Source of the DNA: a virus
Direction: 5' to 3' (one strand)
Length of the DNA: 64,000 nt
Virus record (IMG/VR): IMGVR_UViG_3300045988_047044
Span: 32,182-96,181 of that record
The position numbers were made by a program, and so were the translations under genes. The first letter of the stretch is position 1. The number at the start of each line of letters is the position of its first letter. Under the pieces are notes generated by a model. That model was given only the letters and a program-made list of their open reading frames with translations. It ran no database searches and was not told where the DNA came from. Positions 12,968 through 38,562 of the stretch are shown piece after piece.

Positions 12968-12969
12968 AA

Positions 12970-15920: not shown

Positions 15921-15924
15921 AATC

Positions 15925-16791: not shown

Positions 16792-16913
16792 AATTACTTT
16801 TGTTTAACTGAACCTGGTCTGGTAGTAGCTCTCTTAAATGAATCAGATTGCTTATCCCACCAAGCCTGTCGGTCTTTAAGACGTTGTACTTTCTTCTTGT
16901 ATTTTCATAGGTT

Positions 16914-17387: not shown

Positions 17388-17838
17388 TAAGGTGCTTAAC
17401 CCACATACCTAAGATAAAGATGACATAGAATTTGTCTTCCTCCTGTTTGTAGTTAACCTTGTCAGAGACTTCATTAACTACATCTAACATTGTGAACTCC
17501 TCTTTAGCCATAGCATCATCAGCTATAGCAGACATTTCTTCTACATAAGGTCTAGCCTTCTGCATCGCTTCGTCAAAACTCTTTACTAAGGCTATGCCTT
17601 CATCACCTCTAATTTGCATAGCAACAGATAGAGGTTGTTGCAATTCATTTCTAAAGAAGCCCAAATAGAAAGCTTTCTCTACATTTCCGTTCACGAAGTC
17701 ATTGAAAGATTTAGCTTTCATTACTTCTTCTACTTTGAAATCAATTTCTGATACGTCTCTGATTTTGTCCATAATGTTATGATAGCAACCCACCAATCTT
17801 CTCGGCCATGGCTGTTGCTTTGTTAGAAACTGCTTCAA
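17308..17838 (-). CDS. hypothetical acidic protein
   Basis: 176 aa with an acidic C-terminal tail (EDEDDEDFVENPNADA). Confidence 0.35.
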   Translation of the reverse strand: MKQFLTKQQPWPRRLVGCYHNIMDKIRDVSEIDFKVEEVMKAKSFNDFVNGNVEKAFYLGFFRNELQQPLSVAMQIRGDEGIALVKSFDEAMQKARPYVEEMSAIADDAMAKEEFTMLDVVNEVSDKVNYKQEEDKFYVIFILGMWVKHLIDEDVISETEEDEDDEDFVENPNADA

Positions 17839-18028
17839 GGTTTGCAGCTTCAGTTTGTAATTCGATAATCTCTTGTTCTCTAACCTCTTTCTCTGCTTGA
17901 GCTCTAGATGCTACCTCTTTAAGATTGGTAACAGCTTTCTCAAATACATCAATAATCTTAGCTGATTCCTCGGCTAGTGAGGTACTTGTTACTTTAGCCG
18001 GTTCGGCTGATTGTTTCTTTCCAAACAT
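17777..18028 (-). CDS. hypothetical coiled-coil protein
   Basis: 83 aa, predicted coiled coil. Confidence 0.3.
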   Translation of the reverse strand: MFGKKQSAEPAKVTSTSLAEESAKIIDVFEKAVTNLKEVASRAQAEKEVREQEIIELQTEAANLEAVSNKATAMAEKIGGLLS

Positions 18029-18059
18029 CTTATAGGATTAGAATTACAGGGTTCAGGGT

Positions 18060-18142
18060 GAGCGGCTGTCGGGAATCGAACCCAATCTATCACTTGTGCG
18101 CATACTAAAATTAGTGATGTGCCCTCCTTTACACTACAACCG
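18060..18142 (-). tRNA. tRNA-like element with oversized anticodon loop
   Basis: Acceptor GCGGTTG/CAGCCGC, D-arm GTGT-AAAGGAGG-GCAC and T-arm TTGGG-TTCGATT-CCCGA are canonical. The anticodon stem TCACT/AGTGA encloses an 18-nt loop AATTTTAGTATGCGCACA instead of the usual 7. Confidence 0.35.
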
Positions 18143-18410
18143 CATGGAGCAGTGGTTAGAATACTAATAGTCAAACACTGATAGTCATTCCTAAAGAGGT
18201 GTTCTGCAACCACCCCACAGTCAGCGCTAAACTGCACGTCTTATTACATACGCTCAACTCTGCTTTAGTTGTCATCGATGGACTTTATTTAACCCAGATT
18301 CCAGCCTGGTCTATACTCGTTTCCTTTTAAGCTTACCACACTTGGAACATACTAGTAAGTATCTGTTACAATCAGTATAGCTAGTTTTTGCTATTATAGT
18401 CCATTCATGC

Positions 18411-19604
18411 CTACATGCTAGTTTCTCTAGCCATTTCTTGAATAGTTCTTTCATAATCAATTCGTTTTACTAATGGATATAGTTGCCCATAGCCGTGATT
18501 AACTGTTATACACCTAGATGTTATAGACAGACGATAGTGAGCATTGTTAATTTCGTTAGTAAGATACTCCATAGTTACAGGAGTTACTCCGTCACTAAAT
18601 GTAACAGTTATGCCCGCTTCTATATCTTCTACACTCTTAGTAAGAGCATCTAAGCTACTTTGAATTTCTGCATATCTAGGATTAGGAATCTGCTCCGTCT
18701 CTAAATGCATAAAATGCTTAGATGTTTCACCTATATAACCTCCTTTGCTACATGGAATCGGAAGATAAACCCAGTTGTTATCAAACTTAACAGCTTGTTC
18801 ATAAGCATGAGTTCCAGGTCTAAAGAGTTGCTGGTACGTATCGACTTTAACTACTTCTCTAGTCCCAGGAAGTCTGCCTTGCTTGCCGTCTAACCACCAC
18901 CTTATATAGTCACGAGCATCACGCACATGATATACTGGCAACTCAACTGGAGTACCATTAACCATACACCAATAATGACCTAGCAACCTCGGTCTATAAA
19001 AGTCAGAGTCTGTTCCATTGGAGTCAGGATTAGAATTGGCAAATCCATAACAGTAATCATAATAGTCTGCTGCTTTATGAGGTTTAGCAATCTTACCAAA
19101 CTTGGGCAAAGCATGATTCCTGTTCTCCTTCCATTGCTTAGTACTAATGTTGTATCGACGACCTCTAGGAGTCTGCTCAACAGATTGTACTAATCCATTA
19201 TCATCAACTCTAAAGAACGCCTGTCTCCACCTATAATCAGTGAAGTAGTCGTCTAGGTATTCAGTTTTGTCAGTATTCTTAATTGGCTTAATCCACTCAT
19301 TCCAGGCTTTGGCTAGCTCTTTATAAGGCTTACCTACATACTTGGCTATGAATTTCACAATCCTAGATTCTTTAACGTATCCATAGCCGTGGTCCCAAGC
19401 TATATGACAACTTTTGTCTAATACCTTTCTACCATATCCTCTCTGCGCTGCCACTTCTTTAGATACTCTCAAATTGAAATCAGCATCAAAATCAGCTAGC
19501 GTCACTTTAGTAAGGTGTCTAGGATAGTAGCTTGGATTACGAGTATGCTTGCTTTTACGTTTATACTCTTTCCTATGACCAAGTTTAAGTCTTCGTTCAC
19601 TCAT
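18411..19604 (-). CDS. hypothetical protein
   Basis: 397 aa ORF with a basic N-terminus (KRKSKHTRNPSYYPRH). Confidence 0.45.
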   Translation of the reverse strand: MSERRLKLGHRKEYKRKSKHTRNPSYYPRHLTKVTLADFDADFNLRVSKEVAAQRGYGRKVLDKSCHIAWDHGYGYVKESRIVKFIAKYVGKPYKELAKAWNEWIKPIKNTDKTEYLDDYFTDYRWRQAFFRVDDNGLVQSVEQTPRGRRYNISTKQWKENRNHALPKFGKIAKPHKAADYYDYCYGFANSNPDSNGTDSDFYRPRLLGHYWCMVNGTPVELPVYHVRDARDYIRWWLDGKQGRLPGTREVVKVDTYQQLFRPGTHAYEQAVKFDNNWVYLPIPCSKGGYIGETSKHFMHLETEQIPNPRYAEIQSSLDALTKSVEDIEAGITVTFSDGVTPVTMEYLTNEINNAHYRLSITSRCITVNHGYGQLYPLVKRIDYERTIQEMARETSM

Positions 19605-19605
19605 G

Positions 19606-19890
19606 TTATAGTATTTTAGTTACTTTACCAAATACGGATTTGGTCCACCCATTAATCTTACCATGATTGTTGCCTATAAGAACTCCTCTGTCTCCCTTAG
19701 CTTTGACTAAGTGAGTATAGTATCTACCTTTAACTTTGCAGAATACTATATCACCTACCTCTACATCGCTAAGATTTATAGGACTCAAGACATGCTCTTG
19801 GCCAGATTTGATTAGAGGAGTCATAGAGTTTCCCTTCTCTGAGGTTCTGAAGGATTTTCCTTCGGTCAATAGTCTCTCCTTGTAATGCAT
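19606..19890 (-). CDS. S24/S26-family serine peptidase-like protein
   Basis: GNSMTPLI resembles the Ser-containing GDSM.P / SGSMEPTL motif, followed by VGDIVF and a conserved KAKG lysine. Confidence 0.4.
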   Translation of the reverse strand: MHYKERLLTEGKSFRTSEKGNSMTPLIKSGQEHVLSPINLSDVEVGDIVFCKVKGRYYTHLVKAKGDRGVLIGNNHGKINGWTKSVFGKVTKIL

Positions 19891-20260
19891 CGGCTTTAGA
19901 CATTAAATATACAAAGTTTAATCTCTCTTCCATGGTAGAGCCATTACTTATCCTTTCAAACAAGGTTAACTCTTGCCCATTCTTGTAGTTATAGTAAGAT
20001 ATCAACTCATTATATCTGACAGTTTTACTATTCAACGAAGCTATAGTCATTGGATATCTTCTTAGCACTACTCCCCTATATAAATCAACAAGTTCACCCA
20101 ATGAGTTGGCAATCTTTAATAACCTAACTACATTGGGTGAACCGTGTTTCTTATACCTAATAGCATAATTCTCCAGAGCAGCATCCCAATCATGGAACAC
20201 GTGTTGAGCTTGAGTTAAATCAATCTCAACTATTTTACGCAGGAACTCTTCTATAGTCAT
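19769..20260 (-). CDS. hypothetical protein
   Basis: 163 aa ORF. Confidence 0.35.
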   Translation of the reverse strand: MTIEEFLRKIVEIDLTQAQHVFHDWDAALENYAIRYKKHGSPNVVRLLKIANSLGELVDLYRGVVLRRYPMTIASLNSKTVRYNELISYYNYKNGQELTLFERISNGSTMEERLNFVYLMSKADALQGETIDRRKILQNLREGKLYDSSNQIWPRACLESYKS

Positions 20261-20463
20261 ATTAATTAGATATTGTAGGTGATGTTAACTTGTCAATTAG
20301 ATTCTTCATTGCTTCTTCACCAGCAGCAAAACCTTCAGAATATCCAATATTATATGCCTTCTCTATAGATACAGCAACAGCTTCCATGACGCTATTGCCC
20401 TCATACTGTTTCTTTAATTCTTCTAATAGTTCTTTCATAAATCCTCCTTCCTTTAATTATTAG

Positions 20464-20549
20464 TAGCTTGAGTGGGATTCGAACCCACACGTCCATTTCT
20501 GGACACCAGAGCTTAAATCTGGGGCGTCTACCAATTTCGCCATCAAGCC
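20464..20549 (-). tRNA. tRNA-Leu(TAA): tRNA-Leu (anticodon TAA)
   Basis: Type II tRNA: anticodon stem CCAGA/TCTGG, loop TTTAAGC, long variable arm, T-arm GTGGG-TTCGAAT-CCCAC. Confidence 0.6.
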
Positions 20550-20783
20550 ATACCCTTATACTGACATCATGACCTTGATTGTAACTACAATTATCATTCC
20601 TATAGTACTTATAGCAGCTATACTTAAGAATATCTTAACCCATTTAAAGTCACAATCCCATATAGTTAGTAACATAGCTATTAATGCAGCCACAAATGCA
20701 ATGACTACAGTAATCATTAATGCTGTTTCCATATCAATCTCTTACTAAGTCTATCCAATTAATTAGGATATGATACAACCACC

Positions 20784-21179
20784 TCATAATACGTAATCGC
20801 AATAAGTGTCAACAAAATCCTTAGCTTCTTTTAAACCACATTTAGCAGATTCTTTTACATGCTTAACTGCTTGCAGTTTGGAACCAGTCTGTACAAACTG
20901 TTTCATCTTAAAGAAGTCTTCACATGACAAATCAATTGTATTATTCCAACGCTTCCTGTATGCAAGCATTGCATCACTATACTCTTGAGGATGTTCTGTC
21001 CAGGTAATTTGTTGGTCTAATATAACTGTACAAGTTCCATCAAGTATATCATATTCTCTAGATTCTACGGTGAATTTACCAGCTTCTAACACTACTATAT
21101 CAGTAGGAAATGGAATCATCTCTGATGAGATTGATACTTCCTCTATTGTCTTATCATCTTTTACAAATTTTACAAACAT
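20784..21179 (-). CDS. hypothetical protein
   Basis: 131 aa ORF. Confidence 0.4.
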   Translation of the reverse strand: MFVKFVKDDKTIEEVSISSEMIPFPTDIVVLEAGKFTVESREYDILDGTCTVILDQQITWTEHPQEYSDAMLAYRKRWNNTIDLSCEDFFKMKQFVQTGSKLQAVKHVKESAKCGLKEAKDFVDTYCDYVL

Positions 21180-21204
21180 AATCTTTAAGTATTAATTAAT
21201 AACG

Positions 21205-21278
21205 TAGCGAGAAGGTGACTCGAACACCCAACCTTGCGATTATGAGTCGCACGCTCTAGCCAGTTGAGCTATCTCGCC
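21205..21278 (-). tRNA. tRNA-Met(CAT): tRNA-Met (anticodon CAT)
   Basis: D-arm GCTC-AACTGGCTA-GAGC, anticodon stem TGCGA/TCGCA, loop CTCATAA, T-arm GGGTG-TTCGAGT-CACCT. Confidence 0.6.
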
Positions 21279-21532
21279 ATTAATAAGAACATAAAGCTCA
21301 TCGTGTCTACATCGTTACCAATGCAACCTTAATACCTCCCGTTTGCTTCACTGCCGGCTAGTCTGGCTTTGTCTCCTTATGTTCTTATATATGAATAATC
21401 CGCCTGGCAGGGCTGCGAGCTGCCTTACCAATTATTGACGTCAGCTAATCTATGGAATAGCACGTCTGCTAAACTGAAATAGCCCTATAGTCATTTCTAC
21501 ACCTGCTCACATTTAAGTGGTGGATTACATGT

Positions 21533-22384
21533 TTATCGGTATTTATCGAACATGCTGTCTGATGCTTCTTCTCCCCACATAGACACGATAACAATACCTA
21601 CTTTGGTAGCCCTAAATACTATTGGGTCTTCTAACCTTCTTTTACGGTCTTCTTCAGCTTTAGAGAAGATTTCTATGCGAATATTATTCTCCATAGTATC
21701 ATAAGGCGCTGCAATTAGCCAAGTGTTATGGTCTAAATATGAGGTGCCAAGATGTAGGTAATCTTCCTCCTTATAACTTCCACCTATAGACCTCATGTAC
21801 TGATAACCACGGTCAATACCTTTGAATACAAATGGGAATCTAGAGAAATACTCAACAAGCCGTTTGGTCATGTCCTTAGACATTCTTGAATCTATTCTCG
21901 CAGCTTCAACCCAACTGACGTAGTTAAGATTTAAAGAGTTCAAAGCGTTAGAAGCCTTTGCTATTTGTGACACATTCTCACTTGGAATGAATCCGCTGAA
22001 GGTCGATATTGGACCACAATACAAATTGTACTTCTTCAGGATTGCAAAGAAATCCTCGTAAGTTACAACCAGTGCATCAGGATACGATTCTTTAATCCAG
22101 GATGTTATTTCGTTAACCTTCTTCAGGTCTAATTTCTCTGGACCTAAAGCTGACTTATACTTCTTAGACTCGAGAATAGTCCTAAGGGTATCTGCATTCT
22201 TAGTTCTACCTAAACCTGCTGCTTCCAACTTATCAAGCTCCTCTTTGATTTGCTCGGAATTGTCAAAGTCTTGATTGCCTTCTACGTACTTCTTATAGTA
22301 CTCCATAGATGCTGTTACTAAGGCTAAACGTAACGCATCTGCACTCAATTTCTCCATACTATGATAAATGTTCTTTAATATCAA
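21533..22384 (-). CDS. uncharacterised paralog family protein, copy C
   Basis: N-terminal AAGLGRTKNA and C-terminal ...KVGIVIVSMWGEEASDSMFDKY match copies A and B. Confidence 0.5.
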   Translation of the reverse strand: MILKNIYHSMEKLSADALRLALVTASMEYYKKYVEGNQDFDNSEQIKEELDKLEAAGLGRTKNADTLRTILESKKYKSALGPEKLDLKKVNEITSWIKESYPDALVVTYEDFFAILKKYNLYCGPISTFSGFIPSENVSQIAKASNALNSLNLNYVSWVEAARIDSRMSKDMTKRLVEYFSRFPFVFKGIDRGYQYMRSIGGSYKEEDYLHLGTSYLDHNTWLIAAPYDTMENNIRIEIFSKAEEDRKRRLEDPIVFRATKVGIVIVSMWGEEASDSMFDKYR

Positions 22385-22817
22385 TCATGTATTTTATACC
22401 TTCAATTATCACACATGCTAGCCCGCCAACGAGCATAATGAAGTATAATGCAACAATTAGTGGTTCCCAACCAGTCCCATAATCACTTCTATTAAGATTA
22501 AAGCTAAGCCTATTAGGCTTGTTATTAATAAAAGCTCTATCATAGGTTGGTTTGTCTACACGTAGTTTAAACTGATTGTCTCTACCGTCAGCTATTAGTG
22601 TAAGCTCATATACAGTATGCGTCTGTTGATTAACTGTTTCGGTATAACAGTCCTTAGCAACTACTGTAGTCCACACAGGTTTGTCAATACAGGTTTCTTT
22701 AACTAAGTTAGATTTACATCCTCCTAGTCCTACTAAGCACACCACCAGCCATATTACTATCAAAGTTGCATGTCTGAAAGTGTTAGCTGGTGGTCTCATA
22801 TCAACAATTGTCGGCAT
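22359..22817 (-). CDS. membrane protein
   Basis: 152 aa with N- and C-terminal TM segments (LIVIWLVVCLVGLGG; LIVALYFIMLVGGLACVII). Confidence 0.4.
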   Translation of the reverse strand: MPTIVDMRPPANTFRHATLIVIWLVVCLVGLGGCKSNLVKETCIDKPVWTTVVAKDCYTETVNQQTHTVYELTLIADGRDNQFKLRVDKPTYDRAFINNKPNRLSFNLNRSDYGTGWEPLIVALYFIMLVGGLACVIIEGIKYMIDIKEHLS

Positions 22818-22996
22818 CTTCTGTCAATAATTTAGTTGCCTTATCCATTCCTAACTCGTAAGCTTCAGCAATTAATACTGCCGCACTTGCTATAGAAAGC
22901 TTACCACCTTTGTCCTCTGCTACGTTAGCTGCATTTTCAAGCAGCTCACTTAAAGTTTCTACCATAATTAAATACATTTAATAGTTAATAATCTAG

Positions 22997-23078
22997 TAGG
23001 GTAGGTGAGACTCGAACTCACACGAGCTTAGCTCATTGGTTCCTAAGACCAACGCGGCTACCGTTACGCCACTACCCC
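22997..23078 (-). tRNA. tRNA-Leu(TAG): tRNA-Leu (anticodon TAG)
   Basis: Anticodon stem TTGGT/ACCAA, loop CTTAGGA, long variable arm, T-arm GTGAG-TTCGAGT-CTCAC. Confidence 0.6.
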
Positions 23079-23082
23079 ATTG

Positions 23083-23301
23083 TTACTTCATCAAATTGAT
23101 AAATTCATCTTCATGTCCTCTATAGTATCGCTGAAGATATGCAATATACACGGCTTCGTCCTTAACTATTTGAGGGAATTTGGATTCAAATTGTTCTACT
23201 TTCTCTTCTCCTACTATACTTACATGAAAGTCTCTAGGTGTGTTATCCACCTTAGTTGCAGACATTAATAAGACTAATAGGAATATCAATAAATGTTTCA
23301 T
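23083..23301 (-). CDS. small secreted protein
   Basis: 72 aa with signal-peptide-like MKHLLIFLLVLLMSATKV. Confidence 0.35.
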   Translation of the reverse strand: MKHLLIFLLVLLMSATKVDNTPRDFHVSIVGEEKVEQFESKFPQIVKDEAVYIAYLQRYYRGHEDEFINLMK

Positions 23302-23348
23302 TTAGTTGTTAATAAAAGGAGAGCGAGATTGCTCTCGCCCTCCAAGGT

Positions 23349-24806
23349 TTATTTGTTGTCTTTCTTCTCCGTAGAATAGTCCTTACGGTCGAGTTCCCAC
23401 TGATACTCACACATCTGAGTGATTGCTTCAAGCTTCTCTGTACCCAGAACGAGTTTGAGAGCATTTACCAATCTTTCAGCCGGAGTTTCCACAACAGCTT
23501 TCTTGGATGCAAGTCCAAGTTGACGTTGATAAGATTCAACGCTAGCTTTGATATGGAACGATGTTACATGGGTTTCTTCTGTAAAGATAAGTTTGGATTT
23601 GGTTGATTCAACGATTTCAGCCATAAATGCCGGAGCAATTTCAGCTTCTTGAATGTAGTTACATACTTCACTCAAATCATCGTCGATTGTATATCCTTCT
23701 TCAGCGGTGAAGGTAGAACGGATGAATTTCTCCGCAGTTTCAGCGTCCAGACAGTCCATGGTAATCACAGAACCAATTCTCTTACCTCTCAAGAAGGTAG
23801 GTTCAATCAATTCAATGTGATTAGTAGTGAACAAGGTGATTACGTTCATGTCTTTGGTATCACCACCGTCCAGAGTATTCAGGATGTCTTGCATAGCAGC
23901 ATCTCTGTTACCTCTAGTTACTTGGTCAATATCTTCAACAAATACGACAACACCATGGCCCGAACGGTCAACAACTTTACACATGCGCAGAGTTTCTGCA
24001 AGAAGAGAAGGATTCTTCAAATACACGAATGACCAGCCGTTTGTCACAGCATCTTTAGCCAGCTTAAATGCCAGCAAGGTCTTACCTGTACCATATTTAC
24101 CTTCCAGCAAACAACCGTACTTCAATGGAATACCTTTAGCCAGACATTTCTCCGGATACAAGATTCTTGAACGTAGCGGTTGCAATTCAAATTCAGTCTT
24201 CTTAGAAAGAACCATGAATTGTTTCTCAATGCCGGCAAGTGTCATGATAGTAGGTTCAGACAGATTGCTGATTTCCAGTGCTTGATTCTTGTAGATAGAC
24301 TCCGATGCTAACAGCTCTTTAGTTCTGTCAACAATATCATCAATCAATGACTGGTATTTGAACTGGCATTGTCCTTTAATAAGGAGCAAATGACGGTCAT
24401 TGTCATAGTTGATGTTGATTTCAGAATCTTCTCCCAATTCTTCAAGGCTGATTTTACCAAACGGAACCTTGGTACGAGAACCGTCTGCCAGAACAACGTC
24501 TACGGTATCAATATTGCTGTTTCCAGAAGGACTGTTATCCTCCTTACTAACGGCAGAACCGAAGATTTCATTGATTGCTCTGTTCAACTGATATACACCG
24601 TCCGGTTTCCAACAAAGCAGCGAGTATTTGAAACTTGCCATTTTCTTGGACTGTTTGATTTCACCTTCGATGAATCCCAGAGCATCAGCATACTTCACGT
24701 TGCTTTGGAGCACTTCAATCATTCTCTGTTTCTGAGTTTCCTCGTACTTGTTAACTCTCTGCTTAATAGCAGCTGTAGTTCCTTGCGGAATAATGTTCTT
24801 TGCCAT
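23349..24806 (-). CDS. AAA+ ATPase
   Basis: Walker A GKYGTGKTLLAFKLA and Walker B VVVFVEDIDQV, plus a sensor-1-like TTNHIELI and an arginine finger region; 485 aa with an N-terminal extension. Confidence 0.6.
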   Translation of the reverse strand: MAKNIIPQGTTAAIKQRVNKYEETQKQRMIEVLQSNVKYADALGFIEGEIKQSKKMASFKYSLLCWKPDGVYQLNRAINEIFGSAVSKEDNSPSGNSNIDTVDVVLADGSRTKVPFGKISLEELGEDSEININYDNDRHLLLIKGQCQFKYQSLIDDIVDRTKELLASESIYKNQALEISNLSEPTIMTLAGIEKQFMVLSKKTEFELQPLRSRILYPEKCLAKGIPLKYGCLLEGKYGTGKTLLAFKLAKDAVTNGWSFVYLKNPSLLAETLRMCKVVDRSGHGVVVFVEDIDQVTRGNRDAAMQDILNTLDGGDTKDMNVITLFTTNHIELIEPTFLRGKRIGSVITMDCLDAETAEKFIRSTFTAEEGYTIDDDLSEVCNYIQEAEIAPAFMAEIVESTKSKLIFTEETHVTSFHIKASVESYQRQLGLASKKAVVETPAERLVNALKLVLGTEKLEAITQMCEYQWELDRKDYSTEKKDNK

Positions 24807-24809
24807 TAC

Positions 24810-25082
24810 TTAATTAGGTTTATTAATCTTATTTACTTCTTTAATGATTGCCTCACAATTCTCTCTTGTTGTAGTTAAACAACCAAGTTGAATAATAGAA
24901 CCGTCTTGAGTGATAGTCAGGTTCTTCTCTTCGATTGTTTCCCTACATAGACCTCCTCTGATAATTCTTTTAATGAGTGGAAAGGGTAATATAGTATTCT
25001 TACAGAATATCATATTCTTGCCTTCCACATAAATGACATCGTAGCCGTCAATGCTACCTACTACCTTACTCATTCGATTCAA
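24810..25082 (-). CDS. hypothetical protein
   Basis: 90 aa ORF directly downstream of the AAA+ gene. Confidence 0.35.
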   Translation of the reverse strand: MNRMSKVVGSIDGYDVIYVEGKNMIFCKNTILPFPLIKRIIRGGLCRETIEEKNLTITQDGSIIQLGCLTTTRENCEAIIKEVNKINKPN

Positions 25083-25095
25083 CTATTAACTGTGT

Positions 25096-25169
25096 GGGCC
25101 CGGCCGGACTTGAACCGACAACCTCCTGATTATGAGTCAGTTTCTCTAACCGATTGAGATACGGGCCCC
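25096..25169 (-). tRNA. tRNA-Met(CAT): tRNA-Met/Ile2 (anticodon CAT)
   Basis: Acceptor GGGCCCG/CGGGCCC, anticodon loop CTCATAA, T-arm GTCGG-TTCAAGT-CCGGC. Confidence 0.55.
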
Positions 25170-25264
25170 GAACGCCCATGTTTACTCACAATTAACAGTT
25201 CTCAAAGAGTAGTGTTGTTAGTGACTTCATGATAAATTCTATTTTAAACTGAAATAATTAGTAG

Positions 25265-25336
25265 TTGGGCTACCAGGATTCGAACCTGGGCTACAAGAGC
25301 CAAAACCTTGTGTGACTACCACTACACCATAGCCCA
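25265..25336 (-). tRNA. tRNA-Gln(TTG): tRNA-Gln (anticodon TTG)
   Basis: U1-A72 start TGGGCTA/TAGCCCA, anticodon stem CAAGG/TCTTG, loop TTTTGGC, T-arm CCAGG-TTCGAAT-CCTGG. Confidence 0.55.
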
Positions 25337-25357
25337 GTAAAAGGAGTCCGAAGACTC

Positions 25358-26425
25358 CTAAACTAACTTATCGAATATCATGGGCTGTATCGACATCCAT
25401 AAATTTGCTAGCATTTCTCGCTCTGCGTCAGATGCTTCATCCCAATGTGATACGTACAATTTCTCCGTTCGTTCATTCCTATAAGGAACTTTAAATGAAC
25501 GGTTAATGCGTACACTGTGTGCGAATAGGTCTTTGTCGAAATCAATAGCCCTAAGCGTCTTCTGGAAATCGTTGAACTTATTATTAGGGTCATCGACATC
25601 CCTAACAGACATTCCAGAAGGAAATGGGCCGTTACCATGCCTTGTTATATAAGGACGAGTTACATAACAAGTTTGGATTTCTTTACGTATGCCTGCTTTC
25701 CGCAACAGCTCGTAAGCGTTTTGTGAAGTTGTATTAGACGGAGTGCAATAAGGCATTATGCCGAATCTTTGGTCAAGCAATATTCCCTGTGAACCTTCAA
25801 ACACTAGGTTGTCATAGTTTAACAAGCAATCTTCATTAACCGTACCTGTATGTAAGAAATAAGCATGTGCTAACCTACACCAGTTGTCTAGGTCTATCGA
25901 GGGATATTTACTAGACATGTTGTAATAGTTATCCACTATGGCATTTAATTTCTCACGTAGTATGTAAGGATTCATACAATCTACAACTGTTAAGCTGTAT
26001 CCTGCCTTAACTCGGTCCAAACAAGCTTTAAACCCTGTACCTACAGTACCATGTCGTAAGTTCTCTTCGTTATTAACTTGGGAATAGACATCGAAGGGAA
26101 TTACAACTTGGCAGTGAGGGTGATACTGAACAATGGGACGAACTCCCATTTTAGCTAAGTCTGCACCCTCTAACATAGAGGTAATTGGGTCTACAGTACA
26201 GTATTCGGACCAATACGTCGGCACTCCAAGTAAGGTTCCGCTGCCAAAGTTACTAAAGGTGTGCATCATGTCTCCATGCTTTACAGTATGTCCTACTTGA
26301 TGTCCACCACTAAACCTGACTACTAATACAGACTCTCGCTTACCTATGTACTTGTTACATAAGTTGTGAACTGTCTGTCCCTTACCGCAATCGCCGAAGA
26401 AACTACCTAAAACTATATTTATCAT
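25358..26425 (-). CDS. adenylosuccinate synthetase homolog (PurA-like; possible PurZ)
   Basis: N-terminal P-loop VLGSFFGDCGKGQ (PurA GDEGKGK) and RFSGGHQVGHT (PurA GGHNAGHT); 355 aa, shorter than cellular PurA (~430 aa). Confidence 0.6.
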   Translation of the reverse strand: MINIVLGSFFGDCGKGQTVHNLCNKYIGKRESVLVVRFSGGHQVGHTVKHGDMMHTFSNFGSGTLLGVPTYWSEYCTVDPITSMLEGADLAKMGVRPIVQYHPHCQVVIPFDVYSQVNNEENLRHGTVGTGFKACLDRVKAGYSLTVVDCMNPYILREKLNAIVDNYYNMSSKYPSIDLDNWCRLAHAYFLHTGTVNEDCLLNYDNLVFEGSQGILLDQRFGIMPYCTPSNTTSQNAYELLRKAGIRKEIQTCYVTRPYITRHGNGPFPSGMSVRDVDDPNNKFNDFQKTLRAIDFDKDLFAHSVRINRSFKVPYRNERTEKLYVSHWDEASDAEREMLANLWMSIQPMIFDKLV

Positions 26426-26429
26426 AAAA

Positions 26430-27179
26430 TTACGCTATTGTGCTACTTAATGTATGAGTTATCTCTGCTTCACATTGTCTACAATTCACCCTTATCAAGG
26501 TAACTGCATCCTTATGTCTATCACAGAAATCATTAAGTAGCTGGTCCCTGTATTGCTGCATTTGGAAATCAGCCATGCTATCATAGAATCTATAGGTTGG
26601 GCTGAAGTGCTGTTCCCCATCGTACTCTATGAAATACTGACGTCCTTTATGCTTTACAAAGAAATCAATAACTAATCTATGTGAGGGCCTGTCTATCTCC
26701 TGGTTAATCAATACGAATTGTCGTTCATAACGAATATTACTTCGTTGTAACCACGCTTCAATCATGTTCTCTCCACGAGACTGTTTGCATCTAGGACATC
26801 CACGTCCTTTCAGATGGTTATCTGGAGTTACGTAAAATTCCCCGTGCTTTTTGCACATGATACAAACCTTAGTTCTAGAATTAACATACTCTACTTTAGA
26901 GTAGTTATATCTATCGCCATGTTTGCTAACAGCCTTCCTTACAAATTCTTCGGTAGTAGAAGAGAAGTGGTTTCTTAGTTTAGTACCCTTGCATTTAGGG
27001 CATCCATGCTTCCTATTAATATGTTTGGCGGGAGTTTGTTCAAACTCTCCATGCTCTGGACATATAATGGTTACTTTAGAGTTCATATCTACATAGACGA
27101 CTTTACTATAGTCGTATTTGTCTCCATGAACATCTCTAAACCTAGATATTACTTCCTCCTCGGTCAATTTCTTACCCAT
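26430..27179 (-). CDS. homing-endonuclease-like protein with duplicated zinc-ribbon modules
   Basis: Tandem repeat of YDYSKVVYVDMNSKVTIICPEHGEF...CPKCKG and YNYSKVEYVNSRTKVCIMCKKHGEF...CPRCKQ, then a C-terminal IDFFVKHKGRQYFIEYDGEQHF nuclease-like motif. Confidence 0.45.
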   Translation of the reverse strand: MGKKLTEEEVISRFRDVHGDKYDYSKVVYVDMNSKVTIICPEHGEFEQTPAKHINRKHGCPKCKGTKLRNHFSSTTEEFVRKAVSKHGDRYNYSKVEYVNSRTKVCIMCKKHGEFYVTPDNHLKGRGCPRCKQSRGENMIEAWLQRSNIRYERQFVLINQEIDRPSHRLVIDFFVKHKGRQYFIEYDGEQHFSPTYRFYDSMADFQMQQYRDQLLNDFCDRHKDAVTLIRVNCRQCEAEITHTLSSTIA

Positions 27180-27213
27180 GTACTGTTCCTAATACAATAC
27201 TAATCATTTCAGT

Positions 27214-28146
27214 TTAATAAAATTTGTCATTACTATCAGACGGCACATCTTGCCATTCTTGACTAACAGAAGCACTAGGAGCTAAACCTTCAGCAGGCTC
27301 CTCATAGTTCTCTTTAATTGCGGTGACAATCACCTTGTCTACTTCTCCAGATGCACATGTTAATACATTCTGTCCAAGTAAAGTCTTCCAAGATTCAGCA
27401 ACCCTTGAGCCATGACTGGCATTAGTAATGTGAATGTGGAATACATGGTACTGTTCCTTTGCTTTGTCAAGAGCTTCTTGACAAGTAATGGTTTTAGCAC
27501 CTTTTTGATATCCTAGAACACGTTCTAAGTAACATCCCTCTACCTTATCGAGATTTGGTTCATCTCCAATAGTAAATAGGAATCCCTTAGTGTGTCTTTC
27601 AAACCAGGAATCAGTTTCAGTATGATAACCTGCCACAATATGAGCTAGTAGATAGCTTTCGCCTCTATTACCTCCTCCTCCACCTTCAATCACGAACGAT
27701 TGTAAAGTGTCAAGAATTTTAGCTGTATCAGACTCAAACTGCCCAATTTGAATTGGATATCGGTCATAAACGTGGTCCCCAACTGCCATAAACATGATTT
27801 GTGGGTCACGTACACCTAGTTGAATGAGAGAGTCCATAATCTTAGGGAATTGGTCTCTAATCATTTCATAAGGTGTGTCCATCATTGAACCAGTAACGTC
27901 TAGCGCAATGATTATCGGAGTAGAGAAAGGATGTTCTTTAGAATCACGAGATTCACGAACACCCACGTTAACCATTTCTTGCCTTATCTGCGTGTTATAC
28001 TGCCTAACATTGTTGTTAAGCGATGCAGCAGTATTACATGCATTAATGGCATGGCTACTAAAGAGTTCATCCCTAGTAGAGGTGTACAAACCTCTACTGC
28101 TGGCCTCTACATCATAAGCAATTCTAGAATAACTACCTGCTCCCAT
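27214..28146 (-). CDS. von Willebrand factor A (vWA) domain protein
   Basis: MIDAS motif IIALDVTGSMMD (DxTGS) with downstream conserved T and D; 310 aa. Confidence 0.5.
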   Translation of the reverse strand: MGAGSYSRIAYDVEASSRGLYTSTRDELFSSHAINACNTAASLNNNVRQYNTQIRQEMVNVGVRESRDSKEHPFSTPIIIALDVTGSMMDTPYEMIRDQFPKIMDSLIQLGVRDPQIMFMAVGDHVYDRYPIQIGQFESDTAKILDTLQSFVIEGGGGGNRGESYLLAHIVAGYHTETDSWFERHTKGFLFTIGDEPNLDKVEGCYLERVLGYQKGAKTITCQEALDKAKEQYHVFHIHITNASHGSRVAESWKTLLGQNVLTCASGEVDKVIVTAIKENYEEPAEGLAPSASVSQEWQDVPSDSNDKFY

Positions 28147-28149
28147 AAA

Positions 28150-28530
28150 TTACTCATTTACAATTGCAGCAGCGTCATCTTTCACGTCATCCAAATTAAT
28201 GGATTCTGATGCATCAGCGGGAAATTCTTCTGCGTCGACTTGCATAGCTAGAGCAAGTTCAATCTTTGCAACACGCAGTTTACGTGCCAATTCATGTCTC
28301 GTTCTTACCCATTCAGCCGGATTCAGTCCTTCTCCCGGATTCAAAGAGTCTCTTGATTTAACAGCTAGGTCATTGTGTTTGTTGATTTCTCCCTGAATGC
28401 GAAGTACTTTCAACTTACAATCCTGAACAAATCTGTCTTCCTCGATTTTAGCCAATTCATACAGATTCTGCGCTCTTGCATCAAGTACACTTTGTCCACT
28501 CTTACTTAATTTCTCTTTAAAACTGCTCAT
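28150..28530 (-). CDS. hypothetical coiled-coil protein
   Basis: 126 aa; its start lies 4 nt from the vWA gene stop. Confidence 0.35.
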   Translation of the reverse strand: MSSFKEKLSKSGQSVLDARAQNLYELAKIEEDRFVQDCKLKVLRIQGEINKHNDLAVKSRDSLNPGEGLNPAEWVRTRHELARKLRVAKIELALAMQVDAEEFPADASESINLDDVKDDAAAIVNE

Positions 28531-28617
28531 TTACACTTACATTTAACATGTTAAATTCAATAAGCATCTCTGTGTGGTAATTTATAATCTAACTGTAATC
28601 ATCTAGGATTACAATCG

Positions 28618-28700
28618 AGCCGACTGTCAGATTCGAACTGACGTGGAGTTTCCTCTCGTGATTACAAGTCACGTGCAATCAACCACTATGCGAAGTCGGC
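28618..28700 (-). tRNA. tRNA-Thr(TGT): tRNA with Thr anticodon (TGT) and unusually long variable arm
   Basis: Acceptor GCCGACT/AGTCGGC, anticodon stem CGTGA/TCACG, loop CTTGTAA, T-arm GTCAG-TTCGAAT-CTGAC. It has a 14-nt variable arm with a GAGG-AAA-CTCC stem, which is class-II-like and atypical for Thr. Confidence 0.45.
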
Positions 28701-28758
28701 ATAAACAGGAGACGATGTTACCAAGTGTGCTGACATCTCCTTCGTAAATCAAAGAAAG

Positions 28759-28830
28759 CGGTGCATACGGGATTCAAACCCGTGGTCTCCTCATAGACAG
28801 TGAGGCATCCTATCACTGAACGAATGCACC
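28759..28830 (-). tRNA. tRNA-Asp(GTC): tRNA-Asp (anticodon GTC)
   Basis: Acceptor GGTGCAT/ATGCACC, anticodon stem CCTCA/TGAGG, loop CTGTCTA, T-arm ACGGG-TTTGAAT-CCCGT. Confidence 0.6.
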
Positions 28831-29135
28831 ATGAAGCTTGCTTAACCTACCCTCTAAACCTATGCTTGGACTTGCAGTCAGTTATTCAGATATTGTCCCT
28901 TCCCGCTAGCTGAGTCATTCTCTTACTGTAATCATGTGTCCAACTCACAATTACTATTCAGATGTGCCAAATGGGACATGGCAATTCATAGAAAGTGGGT
29001 GCTAGCCGTTTCTATCCCACCATTGCGTACTACAGTGCTAGCTACCGTCTAAGCTCCTATCCCTTACGTCGCCTTAGAGTGTACATGATTATTATTGCCT
29101 AACCAGTTACCTGATTGGAAGGATTATGTACGAGG

Positions 29136-29207
29136 TACTGCCAACGGGATTCGAACCCGTATTTTCAGTGTGAGAGACTGATTACCTAACCCTTAGTAGA
29201 TGGCAGT
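29136..29207 (-). tRNA. tRNA-Glu(CTC): tRNA-Glu (anticodon CTC)
   Basis: Acceptor ACTGCCA/TGGCAGT, anticodon stem TCAGT/ACTGA, loop CTCTCAC, T-arm ACGGG-TTCGAAT-CCCGT. Confidence 0.55.
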
Positions 29208-29490
29208 GTGTTAAATAGTCGTGAGTAGTTAATTGCAACTATGACAAAATTAAGATTAAAGTCAAAGACCAGCCTATTGCTATCTAGGGCAAAGTCAAAG
29301 GAATTTTGTAACTTCGCAATAGACTGACAGGGTTTGAATTAATAATACTTAATTATGCTGGAAATCGTCCCTGTATGAAATACAGAACACGATTAATTTG
29401 TCGACAATGCATCGACTAGAGTCTTTGATGCAATTCATACTACTCACGCAAAGCTATGTTAGAATCCAATGAGATTCAAGACTATAGCAC

Positions 29491-38263: not shown

Positions 38264-38562
38264 TCTCTTACTAATTTAAGTTTCTTGAACATGCGACCGT
38301 CATCTTGTAATGCGATTGCTGTTAATTGATTGCCAAGGTCTGGTTCATAGAACGAAGAATAGTCCTTATTAACTAAGTCTAATCTTACTTTCCATTTGTC
38401 TAAGTCTGCATATAAGTAGATTAAATAGTTATTATTCCAATCCTGCTTAGGATGTTCTAATAACCACTGCGCTACTGCATGACCTCCTTGTACACAACCA
38501 TAAACTGCATCAAGCTTCTGGTCTATCAGCACATACAATCTCTTCATCAGAATATGTATCAA
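38260..38562 (-). CDS. hypothetical protein
   Basis: 100 aa ORF. Confidence 0.35.
   Translation of the reverse strand: MIHILMKRLYVLIDQKLDAVYGCVQGGHAVAQWLLEHPKQDWNNNYLIYLYADLDKWKVRLDLVNKDYSSFYEPDLGNQLTAIALQDDGRMFKKLKLVRE

What the first reader, a model, noticed from the sequence alone, without database searches (positions are those of the whole stretch)
25358..26425. PurA/PurZ-like adenylosuccinate synthetase homolog in a phage
The N-terminal GDCGKGQ P-loop and GGHQVGHT motif are diagnostic of the adenylosuccinate synthetase fold. The protein is about 75 aa shorter than cellular PurA. Phage PurA homologs include PurZ, which makes 2-aminoadenine (Z) for Z-genome DNA together with DatZ, MazZ and DpoZ. 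Those companion genes are not visible in this window. The gene could instead boost AMP synthesis.
Basis: partly seen in the sequence, partly recalled or inferred. Interest (0 to 1): 0.7.

Follow-up and report, generated by a model that had tools for sequence, protein, structure and literature searches.

The report
Phage PurA-like enzyme, not PurZ
The gene is a real phage relative of the AMP-making enzyme PurA but not the PurZ that makes 2-aminoadenine DNA: it belongs to a large unstudied branch that always sits beside a metal-binding vWA protein, which points to chemistry nobody has yet worked out.

Summary
The ORF at 25358..26425 (minus strand, 355 aa) is real and has the adenylosuccinate synthetase fold: Pfam PF00709 E=5e-33, AlphaFold pLDDT 94.9, best structural matches bacterial PurA.

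It is not PurZ.
- It keeps the catalytic Asp that every phage PurZ/PurZ0 replaces with Ser.
- It scores 19 bits against the NCBIfam PurZ model (cutoff 300).
- It falls in a 99%-bootstrap clade beside canonical PurA, away from PurZ.
- No DatZ, MazZ, DpoZ or dUTPase homologue lies in the 64-kb window.

It is not a canonical PurA either. About 1,176 cluster representatives share fixed changes at the aspartate pocket (V273H, T300 aromatic, T301Q, R303 lost) and the IMP 5'-phosphate site (N38Q, T129V/C, R143 lost).

The gene always follows a ~306-aa vWA/MIDAS protein, usually preceded by a ~115-aa helical protein. This holds in 75/76 viral loci, 75/80 bacterial loci and cultured Mycobacterium, Vibrio and Rhizobium phages. 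In Flavobacteriales the three genes sit inside NrtR-headed NAD+/ADP-ribose clusters.

Best reading: a partner-dependent, probably GTP-driven purine C6 aminating enzyme whose amine substrate is unknown.

In this window a homing endonuclease has also inserted into the gene's P-loop codons.

The parts
25358..26425 (-). PurA-like P-loop enzyme, 355 aa, member of the vWA-linked clade. It has Asp12, His46, Gln213, His263 (TRHG), Gln288 and Asp329.
   Evidence: ORF. Pfam PF00709 E=5e-33. AF2 pLDDT 94.9. Foldseek best matches are bacterial PurA. Residue table against E. coli PurA. Clade bootstrap 99.
26387..26425 (-). Recoded duplicate of the first 13 codons (MINIVLGSFFGDC) that came with the homing endonuclease. 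Relatives without the insert have MISIVLGTFFGDE.
   Evidence: Differences from 99%-identical proteins are N3/S8/C13 plus two scattered residues per comparison. BLAST homology with contigs lacking the insert breaks at 26386. Junction sequence.
26430..27179 (-). Free-standing homing endonuclease gene, 249 aa, inserted into the 5' end of the PurA-like gene.
   Evidence: phrog_559 HNH endonuclease E=8e-57 and phrog_9084 homing endonuclease. Pfam DUF723 and treble-clef zinc finger. Absent from the near-identical contigs L009 and L010. Present in 5 and absent in other near-identical IMG/VR loci.
27184..27207 (-). Orphaned original start of the PurA-like gene (ATGATTAGTATTGTATTAGGAACA, MISIVLGT), left upstream of the endonuclease insertion.
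   Evidence: Direct reading of the junction against L009. Homology with L009 resumes at 27184.
27214..28146 (-). Obligate partner: 310-aa vWA-fold protein with a MIDAS motif (LDVTGSM ... TIGDEP) and an invariant Met-Gly N-terminus.
   Evidence: AF2 pLDDT 88. Foldseek best matches are integrin I-like and vWF A domains. phrog_2971, unknown function. Directly upstream of the PurA-like gene in 75/76 viral loci, 75/80 bacterial loci, and in Va1, RHph_TM2_3B, Rizal and MT835469.
28150..28530 (-). Third cassette member: 126-aa helical protein that precedes the vWA gene.
   Evidence: Matches the profile of the bacterial ~111-aa protein (E=4.9e-9) and of the ~120-aa protein in other phage lineages (E=6.8e-14). 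Present in 71/80 bacterial loci and in 40 of the 78 phage loci by the profile built from the bacterial small protein.

Best explanation
The gene encodes neither PurZ nor an ordinary PurA. It is a member of a third, large and uncharacterised branch of the adenylosuccinate synthetase superfamily. This branch works as part of a conserved three-gene cassette: a small helical protein, a vWA/MIDAS protein and the PurA-like enzyme. The cassette is found in large phages and in bacterial chromosomes.

Shown: the fold; clade membership; retention of the phosphotransfer and base-activation residues (P-loop, Asp13, His41, Gln224) and of the guanine-specifying Asp; clade-wide replacement of the aspartate-pocket residues and of three of the five IMP 5'-phosphate ligands; and the near-obligate gene linkage.

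Inferred: the enzyme still uses GTP to phosphorylate O6 of a hypoxanthine-type nucleotide. This could be IMP or dIMP, or such a nucleotide whose 5'-phosphate is esterified. An amine then displaces the phosphate. That amine is not free L-aspartate bound in the PurA manner. The pocket is filled with bulkier, less basic residues, which suits ammonia, a small amine or a peptide amino group. The vWA partner takes the place of the second PurA subunit, because the trans-acting Arg143 is lost, and supplies part of the site or the substrate.

The biological role is most likely management of adenine-nucleotide, NAD+ or ADP-ribose pools during phage-host conflict. It is not DNA base replacement, and this phage's DNA is predicted to contain ordinary adenine.
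For: Not PurZ.
- Asp is retained in 143/143 clade members and in the query, whereas all 147 phage PurZ/PurZ0 carry Ser (PMC12884076). Mutating S14 to Asp in phiVC8 PurZ abolishes substrate selectivity (bioRxiv 2025.10.22.683976).
- NCBIfam PurZ gives 19 bits against a cutoff of 300.
- Profile scores are at least 250 bits for clade members, 155-189 for canonical PurA and at most 60 for the PurZ group.
- In the NJ tree the clade has bootstrap 99 and is sister to canonical PurA.
- There are no Z-cluster genes in the window. Mycobacterium and Rhizobium do not appear among the ten commonest organism names of the DatZ hits in deposited phage genomes, although about 210 of those genomes carry the clade.

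Not canonical PurA.
- All PurA equivalog models score 59-95 bits against cutoffs of 368-700.
- N38Q is found in 142/144 members, T129V/C in 136/144, and no Arg among the four commonest residues at R143 (G, H, P, N).
- V273H is found in 144/144, T300 to Y/F/W/H in 132/144, T301Q in 142/144. R303 is variable and R304 becomes F/L/M.

Catalytic core kept: K16 and H41 in 144/144, Q224 in 143/144, T239 in 142/144. The D333 equivalent is Asp329 in the query and Asp in at least 90% of the clade.

Cassette.
- The vWA gene lies directly upstream on the same strand in 75/76 viral loci spanning 33-100% identity and in 75/80 bacterial loci.
- The phage collection shows matching genome counts for the two genes: Mycobacterium 202 versus 201, Rhizobium 10 versus 10, Vibrio 6 versus 6.
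- The partner has the vWA fold.

NAD+/ADP-ribose context. In Chryseobacterium and Flavobacterium the cassette lies among genes for NrtR, NADAR, Macro, PARG, SIR2, ADP-ribosylglycohydrolase, Tpt1/KptA, NAMPT and a Prs-like protein. NrtR, NADAR or PARG are also adjacent in Bacteroidales and Acidimicrobiales loci.
Against: - No biochemical data exist for any member, and the literature searches found none.
- His263, Gln288 and Arg292 could still bind aspartate in a new way, so canonical chemistry is not excluded.
- The roles assigned to the E. coli residues rest on my knowledge of the E. coli enzyme literature. That literature could not be retrieved here. Only the existence of the R303L, R143L and K16Q mutant structures is visible.
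- The NAD+/ADP-ribose context is seen in 61/80 bacterial loci, but 58 of these come from one order. In cable bacteria, Methylococcales, Dyadobacter and others the neighbours are housekeeping genes.
- No NAD+ genes lie within 10 kb of the cassette in the phage loci.
- A physical complex of the two proteins was not modelled, and no gene fusions were found.
- Only one third of this phage genome is visible.
Confidence: 0.55

Rival explanations
1. It is a genuine adenylosuccinate synthetase (IMP + L-Asp + GTP) carried as an auxiliary metabolic gene to raise AMP and ATP supply. The vWA and small proteins merely regulate or localise it.
For: The PurA fold and catalytic Asp, His and Gln are intact, and the guanine-specifying Asp is kept. 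The clade is sister to canonical PurA. Database annotators call it adenylosuccinate synthase. Linkage to NAD+ salvage genes, which consume ATP, would fit an adenylate-supply role.
Against: - T301, R303, T300 and V273 are replaced throughout the clade. From my knowledge of E. coli mutagenesis, these are the aspartate determinants.
- PurZ, which still uses aspartate, keeps the TT...RR loop (PMC8342488).
- R143, which binds the IMP phosphate across the dimer in both PurA and PurZ, is lost.
- Curated PurA models score far below their cutoffs.
- A megaphage carries a canonical-type PurA (185 bits on the clade profile, within the canonical range) with no vWA partner gene within 3 kb on either side, so phages can carry the plain enzyme alone.
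Confidence: 0.27
2. It is a PurZ-type enzyme (dGMP + Asp giving the dZ precursor) and marks a Z-genome phage. Its DatZ, MazZ and DpoZ genes would lie outside the window.
For: PHROG 1211, which it matches at E=8e-45, is labelled '2-aminooxy adenylosuccinate synthetase'. RefSeq gives its mycobacteriophage relatives the same label. Its length resembles that of PurZ. Two thirds of the genome is unseen.
Against: - Asp rather than Ser sits at the defining position.
- The PurZ model gives 19 bits against a cutoff of 300.
- S-2L PurZ matches the ORF only at E=0.028.
- PurZ structures rank below every PurA in both sequence and fold searches.
- It lies outside the PurZ clade.
- The sets of phage records hit by PurZ and by this protein differ in makeup: Arthrobacter, phiVC8-like Vibrio, Microbacterium and Acinetobacter phages against Mycobacterium, Rhizobium and Va1-like Vibrio phages.
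- The roughly 200 mycobacteriophage and 10 Rhizobium phage carriers do not appear among the ten commonest organism names of the DatZ hits.
Confidence: 0.02
3. The PurA-like protein no longer does small-molecule metabolism. One option is that it modifies a macromolecule, for instance by joining a purine nucleotide through C6 to the invariant N-terminal glycine of the vWA partner, or by acting on hypoxanthine in RNA. The other is that it serves only as an NTP-driven switch for the vWA protein, as MoxR ATPases do for their vWA partners.
For: - The partner is obligate and its Met1-Gly2 is invariant across phage and bacterial homologues at 27-40% identity.
- The loss of three dianion-binding contacts at the 5'-phosphate site would suit a phosphodiester-linked nucleotide.
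- The aspartate pocket is remodelled.
- The bacterial context is rich in enzymes that add or remove nucleotide-derived adducts on proteins and RNA, namely ARH, Macro, PARG, NADAR and Tpt1.
- The phage copy sits in a tRNA array next to a predicted RNA-binding protein (phrog_850).
Against: This is purely inferential and there is no precedent in the superfamily. The base-binding Gln224 and the phosphate-binding T128 and T239 are kept as in mononucleotide enzymes. There are no fusions or other direct signs of a complex. No PADLOC defence model matches.
Confidence: 0.14

Closest known systems
Bacterial adenylosuccinate synthetase PurA (EC 6.3.4.4; E. coli 1ADE/1CG0, H. pylori 6ZXQ)
   Same: Same fold, with TM about 0.72. 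The P-loop GDxGKG, GGHxxGH with the catalytic His, Gln224, T128 and T239 are shared, as is the NKxD-like Asp for guanine. It is the nearest sequence relative outside the clade, at 183-189 bits with the clade profile.
   Different: The query is 77 aa shorter and lacks the C-terminal S414 segment. It has N38Q, T129V, R143G, V273H, T300F, T301Q and R303T, and the Asp loop is one residue shorter. It falls far below the curated PurA cutoffs. It is always gene-linked to a vWA protein.
PurZ / PurZ0 (succino-2-amino-deoxyadenylate synthase of Z-genome phages; 6FM1, 7ODX, 7VF6)
   Same: Both are phage-borne PurA-superfamily enzymes of about 350 aa. Both are examples of the superfamily being retargeted in viruses.
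   Different: PurZ and PurZ0 have Ser in place of Asp13, keep the TT...RR aspartate loop and the trans Arg, and sit beside DatZ, MazZ, DUF550 or DutZ and DpoZ (PMC8342488, PMC12884076). The query has none of these features. Sequence similarity is marginal.
'PurA-like adenylosuccinate synthetase' of cluster C1 mycobacteriophages (e.g. Rizal gp253), Vibrio phage Va1_039, Rhizobium phage RHph_TM2_3B EVB95_019
   Same: They belong to the same clade, scoring 259-307 bits with the clade profile. Rizal gp253 and RHph_019 carry the full Q38/H273/Q301 signature, while Va1_039 keeps Asn at position 38. Each has the vWA partner: directly upstream in Va1 and RHph_TM2_3B, and one small gene away in Rizal.
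   Different: They share only 31-33% identity with the query. Some are longer at the C-terminus (Rizal 442 aa). None has been characterised. RefSeq labels several of them '2-aminooxy adenylosuccinate synthetase', which the Asp residue contradicts.
NTPase plus vWA two-component modules (MoxR-vWA, BchI-BchD, CoxD-CoxE) and the vWA 'chaperones' of ARG-centred ADP-ribose systems (Iyer et al. 2022, PMC9503650)
   Same: A P-loop NTPase gene is tightly coupled to a MIDAS-bearing vWA gene. The vWA genes occur in NrtR-regulated ADP-ribose-processing neighbourhoods.
   Different: Here the NTPase is a PurA-type enzyme with an intact purine-activating site, not an AAA+ ATPase. The cited paper does not mention a PurA-like component ('adenylosuccinate' occurs 0 times).

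Membership tests
PurZ / PurZ0 | Ser replaces the catalytic Asp13 of PurA (S14 in phiVC8, S23 in S-2L). This holds for 100% of 147 phage sequences. | tested here: not met
   The query has Asp12 in GDCGKG. 143/143 clade members have Asp. Literature criterion.
PurZ / PurZ0 | Falls in the PurZ clade, or passes the curated PurZ model NF038379. | tested here: not met
   19.3 bits against a cutoff of 300. The clade profile scores 29-60 bits on PurZ/PurZ0 against 155-189 on PurA. The tree places it apart.
PurZ / PurZ0 | Z-cluster companions are present: DatZ, MazZ/DUF550 and DpoZ, or DutZ and DmtZ. | tested here: not met
   None is found in the 64-kb window by tblastn or Pfam. The rest of this genome cannot be seen. 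Mycobacterium and Rhizobium phages, which make up most complete carrier genomes, are not among the ten commonest organism names of the DatZ hits.
PurZ / PurZ0 | Condenses dGMP with Asp, and virion DNA carries 2-aminoadenine. | not testable with these tools
   Needs an enzyme assay and nucleoside LC-MS.
Canonical PurA (EC 6.3.4.4) | PurA fold with the P-loop and catalytic Asp13, His41 and Gln224. | tested here: met
Canonical PurA (EC 6.3.4.4) | L-aspartate determinants Val273, Thr300, Thr301 and Arg303. Their roles are taken from my knowledge of E. coli mutagenesis and structures. | tested here: not met
   The query has His263, Phe287, Gln288 and Thr290. The substitutions are fixed across the clade.
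Canonical PurA (EC 6.3.4.4) | IMP 5'-phosphate ligands Asn38, Thr128, Thr129, Thr239 and Arg143 from the second subunit. | tested here: not met
   Thr128 and Thr239 are kept. Asn38 is Gln, Thr129 is Val and Arg143 is Gly.
Canonical PurA (EC 6.3.4.4) | Guanine-specific contacts Lys331, Asp333 and Ser414. | tested here: inconclusive
   The Asp333 equivalent, Asp329, is kept. Lys331 is His. The Ser414 segment is absent because the protein ends early.
Canonical PurA (EC 6.3.4.4) | Passes the curated equivalog models (TIGR00184, NF002223 and others). | tested here: not met
   59-95 bits against cutoffs of 368-700.
vWA-linked PurA-like clade (defined operationally in this report) | Signature Asp13 + Gln38 + His273 (TRHG) + Gln301. 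| tested here: met
   Clade bootstrap 99.
vWA-linked PurA-like clade (defined operationally in this report) | A vWA/MIDAS partner gene lies immediately upstream on the same strand, usually preceded by a ~115-aa helical protein. | tested here: met
   The window has 28150..28530, then 27214..28146, then the endonuclease insert, then 25358..26425. The general pattern is shown.

The most novel reading that the evidence does not exclude
The three-gene cassette is a previously unrecognised nucleotide-chemistry system shared by large phages and bacteria. Its PurA-like enzyme, acting with the vWA partner, activates C6 of a hypoxanthine nucleotide and joins it to something other than aspartate. Three outcomes are possible. 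It could aminate IMP or dIMP directly to AMP or dAMP, which would bypass PurB and could undo deaminase-based immunity. It could make an N6-substituted adenylate. It could attach the nucleotide to the partner's invariant N-terminal glycine. In any case the cassette would be deployed in the conflict over adenylate, NAD+ and ADP-ribose pools.
Probability: 0.35. Interest if true: 0.85.

Novelty: new variant of a known kind. Interest (0 to 1): 0.62.

Why it matters
It corrects an annotation trap. PHROG 1211 and RefSeq label Asp-bearing phage proteins as PurZ-type, which would wrongly flag hundreds of phages as having Z-genomes. This includes about 200 mycobacteriophages.

It also defines a third branch of the PurA superfamily. 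The branch has more than a thousand 50%-identity clusters and a fixed, remodelled substrate pocket. It has an obligate vWA partner, and cultured carriers exist in which it could be tested: Bxz1-like mycobacteriophages, Vibrio phage Va1, Rhizobium RHph phages, Chryseobacterium and Flavobacterium.

PurZ showed that small changes in this fold can rewrite nucleic-acid chemistry. A second retargeted branch could reveal a new purine reaction or a new move in phage-host metabolic warfare, especially as it is tied in some bacteria to NAD+/ADP-ribose islands.

Tried and rejected
- **Nucleotide search.** Megablast of 24000-28000 against deposited phages found nothing.
- **PurZ hypothesis.** Rejected on residue, model score, phylogeny and context.
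- **Z-cluster genes in the window.** tblastn with S-2L and phiVC8 DatZ, MazZ, DpoZ and PrimPol, and with Archimedes dUTPase, gave no hit better than E=0.05. Pfam on 67 concatenated ORFs found no HD, MazG or dUTPase domains.
- **Defence-system membership.** PADLOC had no model for any of the three cassette proteins.
- **Partner by sequence.** Pfam VWA reached only E=0.03, and the profile found no PDB sequence hit. The fold had to be predicted.
- **Cassette fusions.** A search for fusions between cassette members, as evidence of a complex, found none.
- **Genome-level link to phage NAD+ salvage.** A NAMPT tblastn was uninformative. NAMPT occurs in 2,048 phage records, and the 104 Mycobacterium hits do not map cleanly onto the roughly 200 carriers.
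- **NAD+ genes near the cassette in phage loci.** None within 10 kb.
- **NARP3 paper.** Unrelated, as it describes a PnuC and NadR system.
- **Literature.** No source was found for the clade, for the vWA link, or for the E. coli residue roles.
- **Amber suppressor tRNA.** I considered whether it signals TAG recoding. TAG ends 11 of 67 ORFs, so this window gives no sign of it.
- **AAA ATPase at 23349..24806.** I considered it as a cassette member. It is conserved only in the closest relatives, so it was left out.
Full report
**1.

A single uninterrupted ORF runs on the minus strand from 26425 to 25358 and encodes 355 aa. It carries GDCGKGQ at residues 11-17 and GGHQVGHT at residues 40-47.
- Pfam's adenylosuccinate synthetase model matches at E=5.3e-33, but only over profile positions 1-277 of 416.
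- An AlphaFold2 model built on 144 homologues is very confident, with pLDDT 94.9 and pTM 0.93. Its best PDB neighbours are bacterial PurA enzymes from H. pylori, E. coli and T. thermophilus, with TM about 0.72.
- The protein is 77 aa shorter than E. coli PurA.

The setting is a large phage.
- IMG/VR viral contigs encode proteins 98-100% identical.
- The window holds about 29 tRNA genes, a DnaB-type helicase, an SNF2/DEAD helicase, RNase H, a homing endonuclease and a glucosaminidase-bearing 998-aa protein.
- More distant homologues, 54-65% identical, sit on viral and metagenomic contigs of roughly 175-190 kb.

**2. It is not PurZ**

The literature gives a sharp criterion. In a survey of 481 viral PF00709 proteins, all 147 phage PurZ/PurZ0 sequences carry Ser where PurA has the catalytic Asp13, while 99% of the canonical PurA group keeps Asp (PMC12884076). 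[quoted passage not shown] Mutating S14 to Asp abolishes substrate selectivity (bioRxiv 2025.10.22.683976).

The query fails this and every other test.
- It has Asp12, as do 143 of 143 aligned relatives.
- The curated NCBIfam PurZ model gives 19 bits against a cutoff of 300.
- No PurZ chain appears among the query's PDB sequence hits.
- With a profile of the query's family, bacterial PurA chains score 159-189 bits, archaeal PurA 113, PurZ0 47 and PurZ 29-34.
- S-2L PurZ finds the ORF only at E=0.028.
- A neighbour-joining tree of 34 sequences and 339 columns puts the query in a 26-member clade with 99% bootstrap. That clade is sister to canonical PurA (E. coli, Listeria and a megaphage copy, 100% bootstrap). 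PurZ and PurZ0 lie outside.
- The phage records hit by S-2L PurZ differ in makeup from those hit by the query. PurZ finds Arthrobacter, phiVC8-like Vibrio, Microbacterium, Acinetobacter and Gordonia phages. The query finds Mycobacterium, Rhizobium and Va1-like Vibrio phages.
- No DatZ, MazZ, DpoZ, PrimPol or dUTPase homologue is in the window.
- DatZ homologues in the deposited phage collection list no Mycobacterium or Rhizobium among their ten commonest organism names, although about 210 of those genomes carry the query's clade.

The rest of this particular genome could not be examined.

**3. It is not an ordinary PurA either**

All NCBIfam PurA equivalog models score 59-95 bits against cutoffs of 368-700. 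An exhaustive search found 1,176 cluster representatives (50% identity) at E<=1e-30, mostly 350-400 aa. The clade is therefore large and old.

I mapped the functional residues of E. coli PurA onto 144 diverse members. The roles of these residues come from my knowledge of the E. coli crystallographic and mutagenesis literature, which I could not retrieve here. The R303L, R143L and K16Q mutant structures do appear.

| Site | E. coli residue | In the clade |
|---|---|---|
| Phosphotransfer and base activation | P-loop, Asp13, Lys16, Gly40 | Retained |
| | His41 | 144/144 |
| | Gln224 | 143/144 |
| | Thr128, Thr239 | Retained |
| | Asp333 (guanine-specifying) | Asp329 in the query, at least 90% of the clade |
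| Aspartate pocket | Val273 | His in 144/144 |
| | Thr300 | Tyr/Phe/Trp/His in 132/144 |
| | Thr301 | Gln in 142/144 |
| | Arg303 | Variable |
| | Arg304 | Phe/Leu/Met; loop one residue shorter |
| IMP 5'-phosphate site | Asn38 | Gln in 142/144 |
| | Thr129 | Val or Cys in 136/144 |
| | Arg143 (from the second subunit in PurA and PurZ) | No Arg among the four commonest residues (Gly, His, Pro, Asn) |

PurZ, which still uses aspartate, keeps the Thr-Thr...Arg-Arg loop and the trans Arg. The pattern here argues for a change of substrate or binding mode, not mere drift.

**4. The decisive new fact is gene linkage**

I clustered the neighbours of 78 IMG/VR loci that encode relatives of 33-100% identity.
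- One protein family of about 306 aa is present in 76 loci. In 75 of the 76 it lies immediately upstream on the same strand. Two of the loci lacking it are cut at the contig end. One (L091) has a tRNA-rich gap upstream.
- In the window this is the ORF at 27214..28146.
- Sequence methods barely recognise it: Pfam VWA at E=0.03, no PDB sequence hit, and phrog_2971 of unknown function.
- Its AlphaFold model (pLDDT 88) is a von Willebrand A / integrin I-like domain. The MIDAS residues are conserved (LDVTGSM ... GGGGNxGESY ... TIGDEP) and Met1-Gly2 is invariant.

The same pairing is seen in cultured phages: Va1_038/039, RHph_TM2_3B EVB95_018/019, Rizal gp251/gp253 and MT835469. Genome counts in the phage collection match almost exactly for the two genes.

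| Organism name | PurA-like hits | Partner hits |
|---|---|---|
| Mycobacterium | 202 | 201 |
| Rhizobium | 10 | 10 |
| Vibrio | 6 | 6 |

A small helical protein of about 111-126 aa (window 28150..28530) precedes the partner. The profile built from the bacterial small protein finds it in 40 of the 78 phage loci, and it is present in 71 of 80 bacterial loci.

By contrast, the canonical-type PurA of megaphage LR756501 has no partner gene within 3 kb on either side.

**5. The cassette also lives in bacterial chromosomes**

I searched one genome per species with the partner's profile.
- This returned 80 loci. In 75 of them a PurA-like gene of the same clade follows directly, scoring 397-472 bits against 155-189 for canonical PurA.
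- All 75 keep the P-loop Asp, the TRHG His and the guanine Asp.
- In Chryseobacterium and Flavobacterium the three genes sit in the middle of a long co-directional cluster. It is headed by an NrtR-type Nudix-wHTH regulator and is full of NAD+/ADP-ribose enzymes: NADAR, a 2OG-Fe(II) oxygenase, Macro, two DUF4291 proteins, microbial PARG, SIR2, ADP-ribosylglycohydrolase, Tpt1/KptA and a calcineurin-like phosphoesterase. Flavobacterium adds NAMPT and a Prs-like gene.
- NrtR, NADAR or PARG are also adjacent in Bacteroidales and Acidimicrobiales loci.
- In cable bacteria, Methylococcales, Dyadobacter and Pyrinomonadaceae only the three genes are shared, and the neighbours are housekeeping genes. 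The cassette is therefore self-contained and mobile.
- No NAD+ genes lie within 10 kb of it in the phage loci.
- A review of viral and host NAD+/ADP-ribose systems notes vWA 'chaperones' in NrtR-regulated ADP-ribosylglycohydrolase neighbourhoods but never mentions a PurA-like gene (PMC9503650).
- No paper found describes the clade or the pairing.

**6. How it most likely works**

Shown:
- A PurA fold with an intact phosphotransfer and base-activation core and a guanine-type NTP contact.
- A remodelled third-substrate pocket and 5'-phosphate site.
- An obligate vWA/MIDAS neighbour.

Inferred:
- GTP-dependent phosphorylation of O6 of a hypoxanthine nucleotide. Asp13, rather than Ser, argues against a 2-amino purine.
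- Displacement of the phosphate by an amine that is not aspartate bound in the PurA way.
- Every pocket substitution goes to a bulkier or less basic residue. This fits a smaller nucleophile (ammonia, giving direct IMP-to-AMP amination), a mono-carboxylate or neutral amine, or a peptide amino group.
- The lost dianion contacts would also suit a nucleotide whose 5'-phosphate is esterified.
- Because the trans-acting Arg143 is gone and a partner has appeared, the vWA protein plausibly replaces the second PurA subunit and supplies part of the site or the substrate.
- The recurrent NAD+/ADP-ribose context suggests a role in adenylate or NAD+ economy during phage-host conflict.

I hold the negative conclusions (not PurZ, not a standard PurA) with high confidence, the cassette with high confidence, and the chemistry with moderate to low confidence. 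The main rival is that it still makes adenylosuccinate with a re-engineered aspartate site.

**7. A side finding explains the odd P-loop**

Proteins 99% identical to the query read MISIVLGTFFGDE where the window reads MINIVLGSFFGDC. Near-identical contigs lack window positions 26387..27183. The junction, read in gene orientation, shows the following:
- the original start codons ATGATTAGTATTGTATTAGGAACA, stranded at 27207..27184;
- a 249-aa HNH-type homing endonuclease gene at 27179..26430;
- a recoded duplicate of the first 13 codons that restores the reading frame.

The endonuclease has therefore invaded the most conserved part of its target, the P-loop codons, and brought a cleavage-immune replacement with it. 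Five IMG/VR loci carry the insert and close relatives lack it. Cys at this position occurs in 3 of 144 clade members, including the query itself, so the enzyme is probably still functional.

**8. Verdict**

What is there is a member of a large, unstudied, vWA-coupled branch of the PurA superfamily. The branch is of known fold, and its members are annotated as 'PurA-like' or mislabelled as PurZ-like in deposited phage records. Its conserved pocket changes, its obligate partner and its bacterial NAD+/ADP-ribose context are not described in any paper I could find. I therefore rate it a new variant of a known kind, of moderately high interest, with clear experiments available in cultured carriers.

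Noticed in passing
window 26387..27207 (-): A free-standing HNH-type homing endonuclease gene (26430..27179) is inserted after codon 8 of the PurA-like gene. It leaves the original start (27184..27207) orphaned and carries a recoded duplicate of codons 1-13 (26387..26425). The insert is polymorphic among near-identical phages.
   Followed up: yes
window 11044..45336, mostly minus strand: About 29 tRNA genes are interspersed with ORFs and cover nearly all amino acids. One has an amber-suppressor-type anticodon, CTA (37836..37908, called 'Pyl' by ARAGORN). TAG still ends 11 of 67 ORFs of at least 100 aa, so there is no sign of TAG recoding in this window.
   Followed up: partly
window 30819..30922: ARAGORN calls two overlapping tRNAs on opposite strands, Arg-TCG on plus and Ser-GCT on minus. 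One of them is probably spurious.
   Followed up: no
window 12970..13908, 15925..16791, 21533..22384 (all -): Three paralogous proteins of 283-312 aa, 25-27% identical to one another at E 1e-15 to 1e-19, share a C-terminal '...SMWGEE..D..F' motif. They have no Pfam match. Relatives recur in related phage loci.
   Followed up: partly
window 23349..24806 (-): A 485-aa AAA+ ATPase lies two genes downstream of the PurA-like gene. It matches phrog_10440 (unknown function) and gives weak PADLOC IetA-like hits. It is conserved next to the cassette only in the closest relatives.
   Followed up: partly
window 31010..32971 and 32985..33506 (-): A 653-aa SPFH/Band-7 (flotillin-like) protein has a long Ala/Glu/Lys-rich coiled region. 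It is followed by a 173-aa membrane protein. This is an unusual pair for a phage. Related phages carry Band_7 and TerD genes near the cassette (L011).
   Followed up: no
window 40226..41920 (-): A 564-aa protein matches phrog_850 'RNA-binding protein' at E=1e-11 and sits within the tRNA array. It has no Pfam hit.
   Followed up: no
RefSeq mycobacteriophage records (e.g. NC_011272.1 Rizal gp253) and PHROG 1211: Proteins of this Asp-bearing clade are labelled '2-aminooxy adenylosuccinate synthetase', a PurZ-type name. This label would wrongly imply Z-genomes for about 200 cluster C1 mycobacteriophages.
   Followed up: yes
Mycobacterium phages Sauce, Quasimodo and others (hits H183-H190): In a subset of C1 mycobacteriophages the vWA partner matches over only 42% of its length, and in one record (Quasimodo) an HNH endonuclease is annotated under the match. 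This suggests that homing endonucleases repeatedly target this cassette.
   Followed up: no
L101 (Chryseobacterium sp. RRHN12) 5070..16546; L103 (Flavobacterium chungangense): A roughly 12-kb co-directional island headed by NrtR combines NADAR, 2OG-Fe(II) oxygenase, Macro, DUF4291 x2, PARG, SUKH, SIR2, ARH, Tpt1/KptA and a calcineurin-like phosphoesterase, with NAMPT and a Prs-like gene in L103. The cassette sits at its centre.
   Followed up: partly
window 52000..56500: A short block of genes on the plus strand, with reversed GC and AT skew and lower GC (0.33-0.34), interrupts an otherwise minus-strand genome. None of its ORFs has a Pfam match.
   Followed up: no
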